From a virus (lineage: Duplodnaviria > Heunggongvirae > Uroviricota > Caudoviricetes): a stretch of 11,068 bases of DNA. Under the pieces are notes generated by a model. The model did no database searches, was not told the origin of the DNA, and saw only the letters and a list, made by a program, of their open reading frames with translations. This document shows positions 1-9,840 of this stretch, piece by piece (the first letter of the stretch is position 1; every line of letters begins with the position of its first letter). Where the stretch lies: IMG/VR virus record IMGVR_UViG_2700989545_000014. One strand, given 5' to 3'. A program made the translations under genes and the position numbers.

Positions 1-37
1 GATAAGAATAAAATCAAAGCAATAAGCAGTGTCGTGA

Positions 38-60
38 AACCACCTTCGGGTGGTTTTTTT
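38..60 (+). terminator. Rho-independent terminator (7-bp stem, UUCG tetraloop, T7 run)
   Basis: aaccacc-ttcg-ggtggtt at 38-55 followed by ttttttt to 60, read directly from the sequence. Which transcript it ends is unknown because the upstream gene is outside the window. Confidence 0.5.
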
Positions 61-145
61 GTATTTGTATTTTGTGCAATGGCGGTTGAGTGGCGATGGT
101 GTGGCGATATGCAGAAACAATGGTAGTGCACGTGCTGTTTAAACT

Positions 146-250
146 CTAAGGATGAAGCAGAATTCTTCTGCAGCTCCTCCGTATTTCGCATAGTGAACCA
201 GGACTTCTGTTAAACAAAAATTTTTCTGGGATTTTTCCACTCGACTTCAT
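146..250 (-). pseudogene. Degenerate hok/mok-like remnant (upstream leader frame fused to the Hok C-terminal motif, toxin N-terminus deleted)
   Basis: Minus-strand AGGAGG then ATG at 250 gives MKSSGKIPEKFLFNRSPGSLCEIRRSCRRILLHP*. The FLFNR-P segment matches the short frame upstream of the intact hok at 1178..1273 and GSLCEIR matches the Hok core. Relative to 1050..1420 about 130 bp covering the toxin transmembrane codons are absent and the frame shifts after SLCEIR. Confidence 0.35.
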
Positions 251-531
251 TTTTCCTCCTGCAATCCACCAACAGGTACCTGCGCTAATCTATCTTTTTA
301 ATCTGACAACATCTTGGGAAAAGGCAAATTCGTCAGATTTACTGTTTTTCTGCTGCCTCGAATGCCGATGTCTGAAGCACTGATAAGAGTTCTATCTCTT
401 TGATATAGATCTTTTTTTTGATGAATTGCACGACATATTATCGTTATGACACCTTCTTGTTAAAGGTATTGTACTCCTCATCTCGATTTTATGATGTGGG
501 CTATGATTGGTTAGTAATAGAGTGTATCGGT

Positions 532-813
532 ATGCGATGTGGTTTATTAATGGCAATCTGCCTTTGTTTAGTATCTTTTAGCGGATATGCAGCAACAGGA
601 AAGTCTGATGCTCAGATCAAAAAAGAAATAATTAAAGAATCCATTGAATCTTATCCAGGCAATTGTGCGTGTCCTTATAATCATGCAAGGAATGGTAGTA
701 GATGTGGTGGACGCAGTGCATATAGCCGTAATGGAGGGTATGACGTGGTATGTTATGAGGGTGATGTTACCGATGAAATGATCCGGCAATGGAAGCAGGA
801 GAATGCTGAGTAA
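532..813 (+). CDS. Small secreted Cys-rich protein of unknown function (93 aa with predicted signal peptide)
   Basis: The ORF track frame is 418..813. The signal-peptide-like segment MRCGLLMAICLCLVSFSGYA-ATGKSD (basic n-region, hydrophobic core, A-x-A site) begins at the ATG at 532, so 532 is the preferred start. The mature part has 5 Cys (GNCACPYNH...CGG...VVCYEG). The region is markedly AT-rich compared with the phage genes. The Shine-Dalgarno is weak (GAGTG). Confidence 0.5.
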   Translation: MRCGLLMAICLCLVSFSGYAATGKSDAQIKKEIIKESIESYPGNCACPYNHARNGSRCGGRSAYSRNGGYDVVCYEGDVTDEMIRQWKQENAE

Positions 814-879
814 TCTCTTTTAACAGGTTTGTTGTGCGAGCATTATGTGCCGTTAACGGTACACTAGCTAGTGATAGTT

Positions 880-922
880 CCAAAAAGAAAACCCGCAGTT
901 CTTACGCTGCGGGTTTGTTGTT
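880..922. terminator. Bidirectional rho-independent terminator
   Basis: Stem cccgcag (892-898) / ctgcggg (907-913) with an 8-nt loop. It is flanked by tttgttgtt on the plus strand and ttttcttttt on the minus strand, so it can end both the 532..813 gene and the minus-strand hok transcript. Confidence 0.6.
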
Positions 923-1001
923 CATGTCTGTGAGATAGGGTGCCACTTCAGCCAACCTTAGCAACCGATTGACGGGGGATTGCTCCCCCGTCGCGGTTTC
1001 C

Positions 1002-1142
1002 TTACTGCTTACACTGTAAGAACGCCGCAAACTCCGCTCCCCAGAAGCTCATCCGTATTTCACACAGCGAACCGTGTAGCATCCAGATGATGAGGATTAC
1101 CGTCACGCAGAACGTGATGGCCGTAAGCGATTTTTGCGACAT
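1002..1142 (-). CDS. hok: Hok/Gef-family type I toxin (46 aa membrane peptide)
   Basis: Hand translation of the minus strand gives MSQKSLTAITFCVTVILIIWMLHGSLCEIRMSFWGAEFAAFLQCKQ*. It has an N-terminal hydrophobic helix plus the conserved Hok core SLCEIR and the AAF(L) C-terminal motif seen in Hok, Gef, RelF, PndA and SrnB. AAGGAG lies 8 nt upstream of the ATG. It is absent from the ORF track because it is under 60 aa. Confidence 0.7.
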   Translation of the reverse strand: MSQKSLTAITFCVTVILIIWMLHGSLCEIRMSFWGAEFAAFLQCKQ

Positions 1143-1177
1143 AGCGCTTGCTCCTTTGTTGGAGAGGCGCTAACCTA

Positions 1178-1273
1178 TCACTTGCTTAAGGTAGATATGT
1201 TAGGGCCTCGGTTAAACAGAAATGTTTTCCGGGGCCTTTCCACATCTGGCCTTCGGGTATTCCCTCCGACCAT
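1178..1273 (-). CDS. Short upstream (mok-like) reading frame in the hok leader
   Basis: The 31-codon frame MVGGNTRRPDVERPRKTFLFNRGPNISTLSK* shares the FLFNR-P peptide with the remnant copy at 146..250. Unlike classical mok it stops about 35 nt before the hok start and has no clear Shine-Dalgarno, so its function is uncertain. Confidence 0.25.
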   Translation of the reverse strand: MVGGNTRRPDVERPRKTFLFNRGPNISTLSK

Positions 1274-1333
1274 CAGCCGAAAGGCACCCGCGCGTAATCT
1301 ATCGCTTTTTTGTTACTCCGGCAATTCTGCCTG

Positions 1334-1594
1334 TTAATTCTGAGGTAAAGGCAAACTCATCTGATTGTTTCCCCTGTGTGAAGCTGGCAGCTCATGCCAC
1401 GGGATACCTTCTGAAGAGTGAACGCCGGAGGTGTGTTTTGATGTGAATTTATGGAAAGCTTCCAGTGTTGAGAAGCATACGCCGCATTCCAGGTTGTTAC
1501 ACTGGTAATACTTTTGCCGCACGGTGTTTGAATCATTTTCAGGACGACTGGTGCGGATACGGGCAGATGCGCCACAAAGCGGACAACGGAACAT
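1334..1594 (-). CDS. ogr: Ogr/Delta-family zinc-finger late-gene transcriptional activator (86 aa ORF, C-terminus atypical)
   Basis: The N-terminus MFRCPLCGASARIRTSR...YYQCNNLEC has the CxxC...CxxxxC zinc-finger layout and matches P2 Ogr (MFHCPLC...). AAGGGAGG lies 5 nt upstream of the ATG at 1594. The ORF is longer than P2 Ogr (72 aa) and its last ~28 codons lie in DNA homologous to the hok-like repeat. Confidence 0.8.
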   Translation of the reverse strand: MFRCPLCGASARIRTSRPENDSNTVRQKYYQCNNLECGVCFSTLEAFHKFTSKHTSGVHSSEGIPWHELPASHRGNNQMSLPLPQN

Positions 1595-2903: not shown

Positions 2904-4088
2904 ATGAGTGAAACTCGTTTTCATGGTGCCCGTGTTACGGAAAATACCGACCTGGTAACAGCGATTAACGATGTTGATTCCAGCGTTATCGGTATCGTGG
3001 CAACGGCGGATGATGCGGACGCGAAGCTGTTCCCGCTGAATAAGCCCACACTGCTGACCCGCGTCAATGACGTGCTGGGAAAATGCGGGACAACGGGGAC
3101 GCTTTATCGTGCGCTTAAGGCCATCGCAGACCAGGTGAGCACAAAGGTGATCGTCGTTCGCGTGGCTGAACACAAAGAAGAAGACGGAAAGACGCAGGAT
3201 CAACTGGTTATCGGTGGTTCTGAGGATGACGGCAGCTATACGGGGATGTATGCGCTGCTTGTTGCAGAGCAGGATGAAAGCATCGGATACCGTCCGCGTA
3301 TTCTGGCCGCGCCGGAGCTGGACACGGAGGCTGTAACAAAATCCCTGTGCGTGATTGCAGGTAAACTGCGCGCGTTTGTGTATGCCTCATGTCACGGCTG
3401 TAACACGATGGCTGAGGCGATTACCTACCGCCAGAAATTCAACGAACGTGAGGTGATGCTCTTATGGCCGGACTTCATCGCCTACAACCCGAAAAGTGGC
3501 AAAAACGAAACGTTCCCCGCGCCTGCTTATGCGTGCGGCCTTCGTGCGTACATTGACCATGAGCAGGGCTGGCACAAATCGCTGTCCAACGTTCCGGTTA
3601 AAAATGTGCTGGGAATGTCCAGGCATGTGTTCTGGTCGTTGCAGGCCGAAGACAGCGATGCCAATAGCCTCAACAACAAAGAAATCACGACCATTATTCG
3701 TCGCAACGGGTTCCGCTTCTGGGGCAACCGCACACCGGAAACGAACGCCTACATCTTTGAGGTGTATACCCGAACCGCACAGGTGCTGGCTGATTCAATT
3801 GCGGAAGCGCAGTTTGAAACCATCGACAGTCCACTGACACCTGCGAATGTGAAGGATGTTATCAGCGCCATCAGGGCAAAACTGGATTCGCTGGTTACTG
3901 CCGGGAAACTGATTGGTGCGGAGTGCTGGTATGACGTGGTGGATAACGGCACCACGAATTTACGTCAGGGACGTGTGCGTATTCGCTACAAATATACGCC
4001 TGTTCCCCCGCTGGAAGACATGGAGCTTTACCAGACGTTTACTGATGAATTCTTTGGTCCCGCATTTGCGGTGCTGGGAGGTGCCTGA
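2904..4088 (+). CDS. FI: Contractile tail sheath protein (P2 gpFI family)
   Basis: The 394-aa product aligns by eye with P2 FI along its length (FPLNKP, KLRAF, AYRQ-F, WPDF, EQGWHK-LSNV, IRRNGFRFWGNRT, YTRTAQV, YTPVPPLE). AAGGGG lies 7 nt upstream of the ATG. Confidence 0.9.
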   Translation: MSETRFHGARVTENTDLVTAINDVDSSVIGIVATADDADAKLFPLNKPTLLTRVNDVLGKCGTTGTLYRALKAIADQVSTKVIVVRVAEHKEEDGKTQDQLVIGGSEDDGSYTGMYALLVAEQDESIGYRPRILAAPELDTEAVTKSLCVIAGKLRAFVYASCHGCNTMAEAITYRQKFNEREVMLLWPDFIAYNPKSGKNETFPAPAYACGLRAYIDHEQGWHKSLSNVPVKNVLGMSRHVFWSLQAEDSDANSLNNKEITTIIRRNGFRFWGNRTPETNAYIFEVYTRTAQVLADSIAEAQFETIDSPLTPANVKDVISAIRAKLDSLVTAGKLIGAECWYDVVDNGTTNLRQGRVRIRYKYTPVPPLEDMELYQTFTDEFFGPAFAVLGGA

Positions 4089-4600
4089 TGGCTGTACCAA
4101 AACATCTTCGCTTTTTTACGTTGTTTGTGGATGGTGAAAACGAAGTGGGTAAAGTGACATCCGTCACGCCGCCCAAACTGACGCGCAAAACCGACAGCTA
4201 TCGTGGTGGTGGCATGATGGGGGCGGTAAGTATTGATCTCGGTCTGGACGACTCCGCGCTTGATGCGAGTTTTGTCATGGGGGGAGCTGTTCGTGCGCTG
4301 TTCCTTAAATATGGCGGCACGATTGACGGCACGCTGCTGCGTTTTGCGGGTGAATACTACACCGATGCAGAAAGCGATCTGTATGAAATCGAGATGCGCG
4401 GGCGTGTGACGGAAATTGATATGGGGGAAGCCAAACAGGGCGAAGCCACATCACACACTTACGCTGTCAAAAACACCTACTACAAGCTGAGCGTTAACGA
4501 TCGCCCGCTGTGGGAAATCGACCTGTTGAACCACATCTACCGGAAGGACGGCAAGGACATTGTGCCTGACCGTATCCGTTCCGCGCTTGGGCTTGGCTGA
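4088..4600 (+). CDS. FII: Tail tube protein (P2 gpFII family)
   Basis: The 170-aa product carries VTPPKLTRKTDSYRGGGM, the LGLDD motif and MRGR-EID-GE-KQGE, matching P2 FII. Its start overlaps the FI stop (ATGA), indicating translational coupling. Confidence 0.9.
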   Translation: MAVPKHLRFFTLFVDGENEVGKVTSVTPPKLTRKTDSYRGGGMMGAVSIDLGLDDSALDASFVMGGAVRALFLKYGGTIDGTLLRFAGEYYTDAESDLYEIEMRGRVTEIDMGEAKQGEATSHTYAVKNTYYKLSVNDRPLWEIDLLNHIYRKDGKDIVPDRIRSALGLG

Positions 4601-4612
4601 TAAGTAATATGC

Positions 4613-4633
4613 AGGCGGCGCAGTGCGTCGCCT
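4613..4633 (+). other. Intergenic GC-rich hairpin between tube and chaperone genes (possible attenuator or RNA-processing site)
   Basis: An 8-bp stem aggcggcg / cgtcgcct with a 5-nt loop, followed by only two T residues, so it is not a strong terminator. Confidence 0.25.
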
Positions 4634-4655
4634 TTGACTGAAAAGGAGACAACTG

Positions 4656-5030
4656 ATGAAAGACATCGATACTGAAACCCGGAATAACACCGTGGCGGAT
4701 GATGTGACGGCAGGTGAGGATATGGCTGTCGAACGTGGCGTAAAACTGACCCGACCAATTGAGCGTGGTGGCGAAAAAATCACGTATGTGGAGATCACCG
4801 GGGCTATTGAGCAGGCTGGATCCCTGCGTGGTCTGTCGCTGTCTGATGTGCTGAATCTGAAAGCGGATACCATGTTTACGCTGTTGCCTCGCGTGACCTC
4901 GCCACGACTGGATGAAGTGATGATTAAAAAAATGTCGTCACGCGATTTTATTCAGTTGTGCGCAGTGGCTGTAAATTTTATGAGCGAGCCAGACTCTGGC
5001 GCGAAGAGCGTGCAGGAGACGGCAGCGTAA
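4656..5030 (+). CDS. E: Tail assembly chaperone gpE
   Basis: The 124-aa ORF has AAGGAG 7 nt upstream and sits between the tube and tape-measure genes, where P2 and lambda (G/GT) carry the chaperone pair. A slippery heptamer lies near its 3' end. Confidence 0.8.
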   Translation: MKDIDTETRNNTVADDVTAGEDMAVERGVKLTRPIERGGEKITYVEITGAIEQAGSLRGLSLSDVLNLKADTMFTLLPRVTSPRLDEVMIKKMSSRDFIQLCAVAVNFMSEPDSGAKSVQETAA

Positions 5031-9263: not shown

Positions 9264-9840
9264 ATTGTGGGGCGACTGGCCACTCAATATCTGCTGCTAC
9301 TGTTGTATCAACACGATGCAACAATACTCGATATGTCTTCCATGCAGCCAGTAACGATGTCTCTTCCTCCGTCGCAATATCTAAATCTATAGCATCCTGA
9401 AGTGGTGCAATATGCTCACTGGCTACCTGCATCAGGCTGTTTTTTGTTTCTTCCGCCTCCCTTATCCGAAATAGTTTTTCTGCTTCTGCATCTTTCACCC
9501 AGGATGTGCCGTTCCACTTCTGATACTCTCCATACGGCGACAACCAGGTAACATTTTCCGGTAACGGACCGAGTTCAGAAATAAATAACGAGTCCCCTGA
9601 TGCCACGTCATAAACCGTTTTACCCCGATGGTCTTCAACGAGATGCCACGATGCCTCATCACTGTTGAAAACGGCCACGAAGCCAGCCGGAATATCTGGC
9701 GGGGCAATATCGGTACTGTTTGCAGGCAGACCTGTATGAGGTGAAATGTATGCATCACCTTCACCAATAAACTCATTGGTTCCGGTCAGTAGATTATAAA
9801 TTTTTATGGTCCGTGATTGTTCACTCATTCTGAATGTCAT
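9262..9840 (-). CDS. tfa: Tail fibre assembly protein (lambda Tfa / P2 gpG family)
   Basis: The 192-aa product ([18 protein letters not shown]...[20 protein letters not shown]...) closely resembles, from memory, the TfaR/TfaQ-type chaperones of E. coli lambdoid prophages. Its ATG overlaps the stop of the upstream fibre segment (TAATG). Confidence 0.9.

What the first reader, a model, noticed from the sequence alone, without database searches (positions are those of the whole stretch)
146..1273. Short leader peptide conserved between the two hok-like loci despite DNA divergence
Both copies keep a small reading frame sharing ...K-FLFNR(G/S)P... (146..250 and 1178..1273) although surrounding DNA has diverged and been rearranged. 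Conservation at the peptide level hints at selection on a mok-like leader peptide or on the RNA structure it overlaps, which is the expected antisense-RNA target.
Basis: inference. Interest (0 to 1): 0.35.

Follow-up and report, generated by a model that had tools for sequence, protein, structure and literature searches.

The report
Hok/sok RNA hairpin, not a peptide
The short "peptide" shared by the two loci is the translation of a well-known regulatory RNA hairpin of the hok/sok toxin-antitoxin system, found here in one intact prophage copy and one decayed relic, so the finding is ordinary.

Summary
Both small ORFs exist on the minus strand (146..250 and 1178..1273). They coincide in frame over only seven codons, FLFNR(S/G)P. 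A 1-nt indel just upstream puts the rest of the two ORFs in different frames.

The 21 nt under the motif are no better conserved than non-coding blocks of the same two loci. They form the apical loop and 3' arm of the hok mRNA stem-loop that in plasmid R1 pairs the mok Shine-Dalgarno (GAGG) with its anti-SD. The complement of that stem-loop is the body of Sok antisense RNA.

Locus B (about 885..1324, minus strand) looks like an intact hok/sok module at the right end of a P2-like prophage in E. coli. Locus A is a relic. A 128-nt deletion removed the Sok promoter and the hok SD, start codon and membrane helix, and its hairpin no longer folds.

Across 71 distinct homologous leaders:
- The hairpin is kept, with compensatory changes.
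- Non-3n indels occur inside the motif.
- The "F" codon varies to S, L, C and Y, because it lies in the tetraloop.
- Third codon positions are the least variable.
- A Salmonella clade keeps the nucleotides but has no start codon.

Peptide-level selection is refuted.

The parts
1002..1142 (-). Locus B hok toxin gene (46 aa, MSQKSLTAITFCVTVILIIWMLHGSLCEIRMSFWGAEFAAFLQCKQ).
   Evidence: One search lists the ORF. Pfam HOK_GEF matches at 30.1 bits against a cutoff of 22, E 3.7e-7. RefSeq annotates it as a Hok/Gef family protein. The coding pattern of variation by codon position is 0.147/0.069/0.231.
1296..1324 (-). Predicted hok promoter: -35 TTGCCG (1324..1319), 17-nt spacer, -10 TAGATT (1301..1296). 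The transcript start is at about 1290.
   Evidence: Read from the sequence. The -10 block is conserved in relatives. The Rfam sok model match starts at 1289. The strict consensus scanner did not call it, so this is inferred.
1193..1247 (-). Anti-SD/SD stem-loop of the hok mRNA leader. Outer stem AGAUGUG (1247..1241) pairs with CAUAUCU (1199..1193). 5' arm GGCCCCGG (1236..1229) pairs with 3' arm CCGAGGCC (1211..1204), with a conserved C1232.A1208 mismatch. Apical stem AAACA/UGUUU closes a UUUC tetraloop (1222..1219).
   Evidence: Fold energy is -21.1 kcal/mol, z -4.4, and the stem-loop is part of the full-length fold. Over all 31 pairs of the two tested helices, 89.7% of cells are paired against at most 41% in slid controls (87.9% for this stem-loop alone), with GC->AU and CG->UA compensatory changes in its stem. 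The arms are identical to the R1 anti-SD GCCCCG and SD CGAGGC (PMC9841398).
1202..1222 (-). The 21 nt that translate to FLFNRGP: the tetraloop, the 3' half of the apical stem, and the SD-homologous arm (GAGG at 1209..1206).
   Evidence: Variation is concentrated in the tetraloop, which is the 'F' codon.
1178..1273 (-). The stop UGA (1180..1178) lies 35 nt before the hok AUG. It is a truncated upstream ORF in the position of mok.
   Evidence: Relatives carry the same start with ORFs that overlap hok (+1..+137, 23 leaders), end at -12..-36 (30), end at -43..-69 (8), or have no start at all (12).
1142..1172 (-). Local hairpin that sequesters the hok SD (AAGGAG, 1156..1151) and AUG. UUAGCGC pairs with GCGCUA and CUCC pairs with GGAG.
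   Evidence: fold. 92.9% of cells are paired across relatives.
1148..1245 (+). Predicted sok gene: -35 TTGCTC (1148..1153), -10 TAACCT (1171..1176), start about 1183, a 5' tail of about 20 nt, then stem-loop GGGCCUCGG..CCGGGGCCU followed by UUUCC (3' end about 1245).
   Evidence: Antisense fold is -24.4 to -28.9 kcal/mol, z -4.4 to -4.9. AGGTTAG, the complement of the -10, is invariant or nearly so in 72 leaders. The layout is the same as R1 AGGATA/TTGCGC. The strict scanner made no call. The ends are inferred, not mapped.
885..1001 (-). hok 3' UTR. The fold-back element GGCACCC (944..938) pairs with the 5' GGGUGCC (1289..1283). An intrinsic terminator lies at 916..889.
   Evidence: The full-length fold is -181 kcal/mol, z -8.2, with 5'-3' end pairing. 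The terminator scan finds 916..889.
200..299 (-). Locus A leader relic. It keeps -10 TAGATT (292..287), but the -35 spacing is broken. The hairpin is degenerate, and the motif lies at 220..200.
   Evidence: repeats D3, D8. Hairpin folds are not better than shuffles, z -1.1 sense and +0.9 antisense. There is no Rfam match.
139..199 (-). Locus A hok 3' fragment, joined to the leader at 200|199 by a 128-nt deletion. The deletion removed the Sok tail target, the Sok promoter, and the hok SD, AUG and transmembrane helix. The fragment also carries a frameshift.
   Evidence: alignment. D1 172-199 vs 1046-1073 at 86%, with a spacing difference of 1002-874 = 128. The same junction is present in six diverged orthologues.
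146..250 (-).
   Evidence: No Pfam match. Orthologues read KFLFNR, KFCLTE, KTLV* or KILI* over the motif because of 1-2-nt indels.
312..339 (-). Relic of an ogr 3' end upstream of locus A. It is homologous to 1339..1366 of the intact ogr gene.
   Evidence: D2, 79%.

Best explanation
The window is E. coli chromosome just downstream of the glyW-cysT-leuZ tRNA genes, carrying a P2-like (P88/Xuanwuvirus-type) prophage.

[quoted passage not shown] Its parts are:
- a highly structured hok mRNA of about 400 nt with 5'-3' end pairing;
- a leader stem-loop in which an anti-SD arm (GGCCCCGG) pairs with a GAGG-containing arm (CCGAGGCC);
- a second hairpin that hides the hok SD and AUG;
- a predicted cis-antisense Sok RNA of about 60 nt, whose stem-loop is the complement of the leader stem-loop and whose 5' tail is complementary to the variable segment just downstream.

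The 'FLFNRGP' motif is simply this stem-loop (tetraloop, half of the apical stem, and the SD arm) read in one of three frames. It is conserved because both RNAs need it, not because a peptide is selected.

ORF 1178..1273 occupies the place of mok. It is a frame-drifting upstream ORF that stops 35 nt before hok. If it matters at all, it matters through being translated, not through its product.

Locus A is a relic of an older copy of the same prophage end (ogr fragment, hok leader, hok 3' fragment). It was inactivated by a 128-nt deletion, and it retains the motif only as residual homology.

Shown here: the homology, the deletion, the structure conservation and covariation, and the lack of any coding signature. 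Inferred: the Sok ends, both promoters, and the regulatory dynamics, all by analogy with plasmid R1.
For: Identity and context:
- 100% match to E. coli chromosomes with Hok/Gef, Ogr and gpD annotated, next to tRNA-Leu.
- P88/Xuanwuvirus phages at 96-99% identity.
- Pfam HOK_GEF.

RNA family:
- Rfam RF01794 'sok' matches 1132..1289 (-) over the whole model, E 2.9e-9.
- The arms GCCCCG/CGAGGC and the C.A mismatch equal the R1 mok anti-SD/SD (C74/A106) (PMC9841398).

Structure:
- Full-length mRNA fold has z -8.2 with end pairing.
- The hairpin has z -4.4 sense and -4.9 antisense, and the antisense fold is always the more stable one.
- 89.7% of cells are paired against at most 41% in slid controls, with compensatory GC->AU in 7 distinct sequences and CG->UA in 2.

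Against a peptide:
- A 1-nt indel separates A and B.
- Loop lengths of 14-19 nt occur in loci with intact hok, and there are +1, -1, -2 and -5 indels in the motif.
- Variability by codon position is 0.133/0.138/0.056 in the leader, against 0.147/0.069/0.231 in hok.
- 12 of 71 leaders, the Salmonella types, have no start codon while the motif nucleotides are unchanged.

Locus A:
- The same 128-nt deletion is present in orthologues 13% diverged, and the frame over the motif is not kept.
- The hairpin fold is no better than shuffles.
- There are no Rfam or Pfam hits.
Against: - The Rfam score (47.9 bits) is below the family's gathering threshold (59).
- The promoter scanner called neither the hok nor the sok promoter, so both were assigned by eye and by conservation.
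- The U-run after the predicted Sok stem-loop is short (UUUCC), so its 3' end is uncertain.
- Covariation is modest because the sequences are closely related. Only 6 pairs change on both sides, and 181 of 500 shuffles reach that count.
- No expression data were available for this locus.
- The experimentally studied hokW-sokW of Sp5 encodes a different, 51-aa Hok, so function here rests on homology.
Confidence: 0.85

Rival explanations
1. One reading: a mok-like leader peptide containing FLFNR(G/S)P is kept by purifying selection in both loci.
For: Two ORFs share 6 of 7 residues, and two of the nucleotide differences in the motif are synonymous.
Against: - The frames coincide for only 7 codons.
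- Non-3n indels occur in homologues of both loci.
- The F codon varies to S, L, C and Y.
- Third codon positions are the least variable.
- 12 leaders have no start codon although the nucleotides are identical.
- For R1, the literature shows that translation of mok matters, not its product (PMC9841398).
Confidence: 0.03
2. The upstream ORF of locus B (AUG 1245 or GUG 1243 to UGA 1178) is a working functional equivalent of mok. Ribosomes translating it would melt the anti-SD/SD stem-loop and stop next to the hairpin that hides the hok SD, which would allow hok translation. Sok would block this by covering the ORF. This is compatible with the best explanation and concerns only whether the ORF is used.
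For: - The start pair AUGUGG with GAAGG 4-6 nt upstream is kept in 59 of 71 leaders.
- In 53 of those 59, an ORF from it reaches to within 36 nt of the hok AUG or overlaps hok.
- 23 leaders have a long ORF in the same relative frame as R1 mok.
- Almost the whole ORF lies under the predicted Sok RNA.
Against: - The Salmonella-type loci have intact hok, hairpins and sok -10 but no start codon.
- The three possible end points occur roughly as expected if the frame drifts freely: 23 of 59 overlap hok, about one third.
- The start-codon nucleotides also form the outer stem of the hairpin and change together with their partners, so RNA structure alone can explain their conservation.
- In R1, translation must reach the hok SD, whereas here it stops 22 nt short of it.
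Confidence: 0.35
3. Locus A is not junk. It would be kept as an orphan regulator, for example a decoy or antitoxin-like RNA acting on hok-B or on incoming P2-like phages, or it would encode the 34-aa protein behind its strong GGAGG-N5-ATG site.
For: - The relic with the same deletion persists in about 646 of 5426 E. coli genomes at 86-100% identity.
- GGAGGAAAAATG is conserved in all seven copies examined.
- On the + strand a weak stem is followed by TTTTT.
Against: - The Sok promoter and 5' tail lie inside the deleted 128 nt.
- The hok-type promoter has an 11-13-nt spacer.
- The hairpins fold no better than shuffles.
- ORF length and frame differ among orthologues: 18, 34 and 41 aa.
- Substitutions are spread evenly, with no conserved island.
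- There are no Rfam or Pfam matches.
Confidence: 0.05

Closest known systems
hok/sok/mok of plasmid R1 (parB), the model type I toxin-antitoxin system
   Same: - A Hok/Gef toxin.
- An mRNA closed by 5'-3' end pairing.
- A leader stem-loop with identical arm sequences (GCCCCG / CGAGGC) and the same C.A mismatch (R1 C74/A106).
- The sok -35 overlapping the hok SD region, and the -10 at AGG(A/T)TA.
- Sok built as a 5' tail plus one stem-loop (PMC9841398; PMC1635323).
   Different: - Hok is 46 aa rather than 52, and is distantly related.
- There is no start codon 3-14 nt after the GAGG in 72 of 73 leaders.
- Instead an AUGUGG start lies upstream of the stem-loop, and in the window that ORF ends 35 nt before hok rather than overlapping it.
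- The loop is 17 nt rather than about 25.
hokW-sokW of Stx2 prophage Sp5 (PMC8621323)
   Same: It is a prophage-borne hok/sok module, shown experimentally to be a type I TA that depends on RNase III and Hfq. Stx and lambdoid phages also carry close relatives (76-84% DNA identity) of the window's locus.
   Different: The studied HokW is a 51-aa protein, not the 46-aa type found here. Function of the window's locus is therefore inferred and has not been tested.
Inactivated chromosomal hok loci of E. coli K-12 (hokA-E).
   Same: hok loci commonly persist in chromosomes as relics inactivated by rearrangements, IS elements or point mutations. Locus A is such a relic.
   Different: Locus A was inactivated by an internal 128-nt deletion that took out the sok promoter and the hok start together. 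It lies beside an intact paralogue at the same prophage end.
Rfam RF01794 'sok' (model of the hok leader / sok region)
   Same: There is a full-length match (model positions 1-157) at 1132..1289 (-), E 2.9e-9. The consensus contains the same GCCCC...GaGGC helix.
   Different: The score of 47.9 bits is below the gathering score of 59, so this is a divergent subfamily. Locus A gives no match.

Membership tests
[quoted passage not shown] | Small hydrophobic Hok/Gef toxin ORF | tested here: met
   PF01848 matches at 30.1 bits (cutoff 22), E 3.7e-7. It is annotated as Hok/Gef in RefSeq.
[quoted passage not shown] | Leader RNA matches the curated sok/hok-leader covariance model | tested here: inconclusive
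   RF01794 gives a full-length match, E 2.9e-9, but 47.9 bits is below the gathering score of 59.
[quoted passage not shown] | Anti-SD (ucb) / SD stem-loop in the leader | tested here: met
   The arms and the C.A mismatch are identical to R1 (PMC9841398). The fold has z -4.4. Over both tested helices 89.7% of cells are paired (87.9% for this stem-loop), with compensatory changes.
[quoted passage not shown] | Pairing of the mRNA 5' end with its 3' end (tac/fbi) | tested here: met
   The minimum-free-energy fold of 885..1313 (-) pairs GGGUGCCUUUCGGCU with the 3' UTR; -181 kcal/mol, z -8.2. This is prediction only.
[quoted passage not shown] | Cis-encoded antisense Sok RNA with its own promoter, a 5' tail and a stem-loop | tested here: inconclusive
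   -35 TTGCTC and -10 TAACCT have a 17-nt spacer and a conserved complement. The antisense stem-loop has z -4.9. The strict promoter and terminator scans made no call. No transcript data were available.
[quoted passage not shown] | mok reading frame that starts just after the SD in the stem-loop and overlaps hok | tested here: not met
   There is no ATG/GTG/TTG 3-14 nt after GAGG. The only upstream ORFs end 35 and 43 nt before hok. Relatives with a long overlapping ORF exist.
[quoted passage not shown] | Toxicity of Hok and its neutralisation by Sok | not testable with these tools
   This needs expression experiments.
[quoted passage not shown] | Intact hok ORF, sok promoter and leader stem-loop | tested here: not met
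   A 128-nt deletion removes the SD, AUG, TM helix and sok promoter. There are no Pfam or Rfam matches. Hairpin z is -1.1 and +0.9.
Conserved leader peptide under purifying selection | Reading frame kept among homologues (indels in multiples of three) | tested here: not met
   B family: +1, -1, -2 and -5 indels and loops of 14-19 nt. A orthologues: 1-2-nt indels giving four different readings. A versus B: a 1-nt indel.
Conserved leader peptide under purifying selection | Coding pattern of substitution (synonymous excess, third position most variable) | tested here: not met
   There are 2 synonymous and 7 non-synonymous codon variants. Variability by codon position is 0.133/0.138/0.056, against 0.147/0.069/0.231 in the hok control.
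Conserved leader peptide under purifying selection | Conserved start codon | tested here: not met
The AUGUGG start is absent in 12 of 71 leaders although the motif nucleotides are unchanged.

The most novel reading that the evidence does not exclude
In this 46-aa Hok subfamily, found in P2-like and lambdoid prophages of Escherichia and Salmonella, the classical mok start after the stem-loop SD is missing. E. coli-type loci instead have two overlapping starts (AUGUGG) upstream of the anti-SD/SD stem-loop, giving an ORF whose frame and end point drift freely. Salmonella-type loci have no upstream ORF at all. Hok translation in this subfamily may therefore be mok-independent, controlled only by RNA refolding and by Sok-triggered decay, or it may use a different kind of coupling from R1.
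Probability: 0.3. Interest if true: 0.35.

Novelty: already known. Interest (0 to 1): 0.12.

Why it matters
It matters mainly as a caution. In compact antisense-regulated loci, a strongly conserved RNA helix translates into a "conserved peptide" in whichever frame happens to be open. Frame, indel and codon-position tests separate the two cases quickly.

For annotation, the result gives three things:
- It places the parts of a hok/sok module at the right end of P88-like prophages.
- It identifies the neighbouring sequence as a dead relic rather than a second toxin locus.
- It shows that phage records label the hok CDS itself as 'MokW-like'.

The one point of modest wider interest is that the mok reading frame, described as required for hok translation in the papers on plasmid R1 read here, is labile or absent in this prophage subfamily. 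A recent survey of Hok diversity left mok unannotated because it is hard to define (bioRxiv 10.1101/2025.08.07.668861).

Tried and rejected
- **Promoter and terminator scan.** It found neither the hok nor the sok promoter and no Sok terminator. I assigned them by eye and by conservation, and marked them as inferred.
- **Rfam at gathering threshold.** It found only IS009. The sok match appeared only in the E-value search.
- **Species-representative genomes.** The scan gave 7 loci, three of them in assemblies named for unrelated bacteria (probably contamination). The first IMG/VR scan returned only near-identical Hok sequences. Diversity came from two further scans seeded with Salmonella-type proteins.
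- **Equating the locus with hokW-sokW.** I first assumed the 933W/Sp5 homologue was the published hokW-sokW. The paper's HokW is 51 aa, so I dropped that identification.
- **The 'MokW-like host killing' CDS in phage records.** It turned out to be the hok CDS, not a mok.
- **A duplicated att core.** I looked for one between 1..62 and about 865..900 to explain the tandem arrangement and found none. No phage record contains 63..880, so the origin of that segment stays open.
- **tac-ucb pairing as a second covarying interaction.** GCCUUUC/GAAAGGC in E. coli types versus GCCUUCG/CGAAGGU in one Salmonella type looked suggestive by eye. It was not consistent in all clades, so I did not use it.
- **The + strand ORF 1134..1337 (67 aa), antisense to the leader.** It is also open in 933W, but its ATG is not conserved in relatives, so I rejected it as a gene.
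Full report
**What is there**

The window is E. coli chromosome. Bases 1..62 are the end of the core region after the glyW-cysT-leuZ tRNA genes and occur in 5418 of 5426 complete E. coli genomes. From about 880 rightwards lies the right end of a P2-like prophage with hok, ogr, gpD, tail sheath and so on. That end is 96-99% identical to phages P88 and P88_4B11 (Xuanwuvirus).

The stretch 63..880 is in no phage record. It accompanies this prophage end at the same site in about 646 genomes, including O157:H7, where an IS30 has replaced hok-ogr.

**Check of the observation**

The ORF listing gives both ORFs on the minus strand exactly as stated. ORF 146..250 is 34 aa and ORF 1178..1273 is 31 aa, and they share FLFNR(S/G)P.

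The DNA alignment of the two loci shows that they are homologous over the promoter -10, the leader and part of hok. It also shows a 1-nt indel immediately 5' of the motif. The two ORFs therefore read homologous DNA in the same frame for only seven codons (A 220..200, B 1222..1202). Their N-terminal parts are unrelated because they are in different frames.

The claim that the peptide is conserved although the DNA diverged does not hold:
- The best 24-nt window at the motif is 20/24 identical.
- The non-coding -10/5' end block is also 20/24.
- An ogr 3'-end block is 19/24.

Within the motif there are two synonymous differences and one doubly changed non-synonymous codon. That carries no statistical weight.

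**What locus B is**

- ORF 1002..1142 (-) is a 46-aa Hok/Gef protein (Pfam 30.1 bits).
- Rfam's sok model (RF01794, built in the sense of the hok leader) matches 1132..1289 (-) over its whole length. E is 2.9e-9, although the 47.9 bits fall below the gathering score of 59.
- The 429-nt stretch 885..1313 (-) folds at -181 kcal/mol (z -8.2). The 5' GGGUGCCUUUCGGCU pairs with the 3' UTR, which is the hallmark end pairing of hok mRNAs, and a terminator lies at 916..889.
- In that fold, 1247..1193 is a long stem-loop. Its outer stem is AGAUGUG/CAUAUCU. Its inner stem is GGCCCCGG/CCGAGGCC with a C.A mismatch. An apical AAACA/UGUUU stem closes a UUUC tetraloop.
- A second hairpin (1172..1142) pairs UUAGCGC with GCGCUA and CUCC with GGAG. 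It hides the hok SD and AUG.

**Comparison with R1**

I fetched an R1-type hok locus with mok annotated (L171) and aligned it. I used the numbering in Le Rhun et al. 2022 (PMC9841398).

- The R1 mok SD is G105-A106-G107-G108 in CACGAGGCA.
- Its anti-SD is G71-C-C-C74-C-G76.
- C74 lies opposite A106.

The window's GGCCCCGG (1236..1229) and CCGAGGCC (1211..1204) are the same two arms, with the same C.A mismatch (C1232/A1208).

'RGP' is the translation of CGA-GGC-CCU, which contains the GAGG.

On the opposite strand the same sequence gives a more stable stem-loop (-24.4 vs -21.1 kcal/mol here, and -31.3 vs -15.1 in a lambdoid relative), because the C.A mismatch becomes G.U. Together with a -35 TTGCTC (1148..1153), a 17-nt spacer and a -10 TAACCT (1171..1176), this predicts a Sok RNA of about 60 nt. 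It would have a 5' tail of about 20 nt and one stem-loop, which is the architecture established for R1 Sok (PMC1635323). AGGTTAG, the complement of the -10, is invariant or nearly so in 72 relatives. These promoter and end assignments are inferred. The strict scanner did not call them.

**Test of peptide versus RNA**

I collected 159 loci that encode this Hok type, from IMG/VR and from species-representative genomes. They gave 95 distinct leader+CDS sequences and 71-73 distinct leaders, nearly all followed by an intact 46-aa hok (two, L007 and L010, read differently at the 3' end).

*Structure.* On a 72-sequence alignment, 89.7% of cells pair in the proposed structure, against 29-41% when the partners are slid. 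GC->AU at the inner stem occurs in 7 distinct sequences and CG->UA in 2. Covariation is otherwise modest because the set is closely related.

*Frame.*
- The distance between the arms is 14, 15, 16, 17, 18 or 19 nt in different loci.
- Single loci have +1 or -1 inside the motif.
- Two Salmonella-type leaders have -2 and one has -5.
- A 1-nt indel just 3' of the hairpin (ACATATC vs AC-CGTC) changes the frame and the stop.

Five of the seven hit the TTT 'F' codon (to S, S, L, C, Y), which is the tetraloop.

The same measure on hok gives the expected coding pattern, 0.147/0.069/0.231.

*Start codons.*
- The plausible start is an overlapping AUG/GUG pair (1245/1243) behind GAAGG.
- Twelve Salmonella-type leaders have no start there, or anywhere sensible, while AAAACATTTCTGTTTAACCGAGG is unchanged.

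**What ORF 1178..1273 is**

From the AUGUGG start, ORFs in relatives fall into four groups:

| Where the ORF ends | Leaders |
|---|---|
| Overlaps hok, ending at +1 to +137, in the same relative frame as R1 mok | 23 |
| 12-36 nt before hok | 30 |
| 43-69 nt before hok | 8 |
| No start codon, so no ORF | 12 |

The window's ORF is the -35 type.

In R1 the mok AUG lies 7 nt after the GAGG. Here 72 of 73 leaders have no ATG, GTG or TTG 3-14 nt after it. The ORF thus occupies the position of mok but starts upstream of the stem-loop, and its frame drifts. About one third of the ORFs land in the hok-overlapping frame, which is what free drift predicts.

Its start-codon nucleotides are also the outer stem of the hairpin. 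In Salmonella types they change together with their pairing partners (AAAGaCG/CGCUUU).

Whether its translation helps to open the hok SD hairpin cannot be decided here. I give that 0.35. For R1, it is translation of mok that counts, not its product, and translation must reach the hok SD.

**What locus A is**

The homologous blocks are spaced 1027 nt apart (ogr 3' end), 1009 (-10), 1002 (hairpin) and 874 (hok CDS fragment). A 128-nt deletion therefore joins the 3' side of the hairpin (200) to hok codon 24 (199). It removed the Sok tail target, the sok promoter, and the hok SD, AUG and membrane helix. A frameshift follows SLCEIR.

Six orthologues at the same leuZ site, up to 13% diverged, share the junction. 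The deletion is therefore old. They read the motif as KFLFNR, KFCLTE, KTLV-stop or KILI-stop because of 1-2-nt indels.

The hairpin folds no better than shuffled sequence on either strand (z -1.1 and +0.9). The -35/-10 spacing is 11-13 nt. Nothing matches in Pfam or Rfam. Locus A is a relic of an older copy of the same prophage end, and ORF 146..250 is incidental.

**Verdict**

The peptide reading is refuted, and the RNA/antisense-target reading is correct for locus B. Everything fits the known hok/sok paradigm.

The only mildly unusual point is the labile or absent mok frame in this prophage subfamily. A recent survey explicitly left mok unannotated because it is hard to define (bioRxiv 10.1101/2025.08.07.668861).

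Interest is low.

Noticed in passing
window 532..813 (+): A 93-aa hypothetical protein (WP_001303543.1) lies between the two hok loci. It has a signal-peptide-like N-terminus and many cysteines, and its only Pfam match is sub-threshold. It is conserved at the leuZ site in hundreds of E. coli genomes and looks like prophage-end cargo of unknown function.
   Followed up: no
window 9299..9497 (-): There is a full-length match to Rfam IS009 (RF02111) at 177 bits, well above its gathering score of 117, inside the P2-like prophage.
   Followed up: no
window 1193..1247 (-) and loci L004-L163: In this 46-aa Hok subfamily the R1-type mok start after the GAGG is missing in 72 of 73 distinct leaders. E. 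coli-type loci have overlapping AUG/GUG starts upstream of the stem-loop. Salmonella-type loci have no start codon at all but keep the hairpin, the sok -10 and an intact hok.
   Followed up: partly
window 312..339 vs 1339..1366: Locus A is preceded by a fragment homologous to the 3' end of ogr (79%). The relic is therefore a piece of an older P2-like right end (ogr-hok), not an isolated hok copy.
   Followed up: partly
L170 (E. coli O157:H7 Z1626), 3331..4871: In O157:H7 the same site keeps locus A and the 93-aa gene. An IS30 has replaced hok-B, ogr and the 5' part of gpD, which leaves a crippled P2-like prophage.
   Followed up: partly
window 63..880: This segment is absent from all 50,697 phage records, although phages of this type carry the flanking 1..62 (their att region) and 882 onwards. 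No repeated att core was found at its right edge. How the relic-plus-cargo segment came to lie between att and the intact prophage end is unexplained.
   Followed up: partly
L002 (NC_049391.1) 802..942: Phage records label the 46-aa hok CDS itself as 'MokW-like host killing'. The name is misleading, because no mok is annotated there. The published HokW of Sp5 is a different, 51-aa protein.
   Followed up: yes
L004, L005, L008: E. coli-type hok loci (74-100% Hok protein identity) occur in assemblies named Planococcaceae bacterium UBA3378, Vagococcus sp. WN89Y and Xanthomonas pisi DSM 18956. These are probably contaminating enterobacterial contigs.
   Followed up: no
window 1134..1337 (+): A 67-aa ORF antisense to the hok leader is also open in the phage 933W homologue (81 aa). 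Its ATG is not conserved in other relatives, so it is probably a by-product of the G+C-rich structured sequence.
   Followed up: partly
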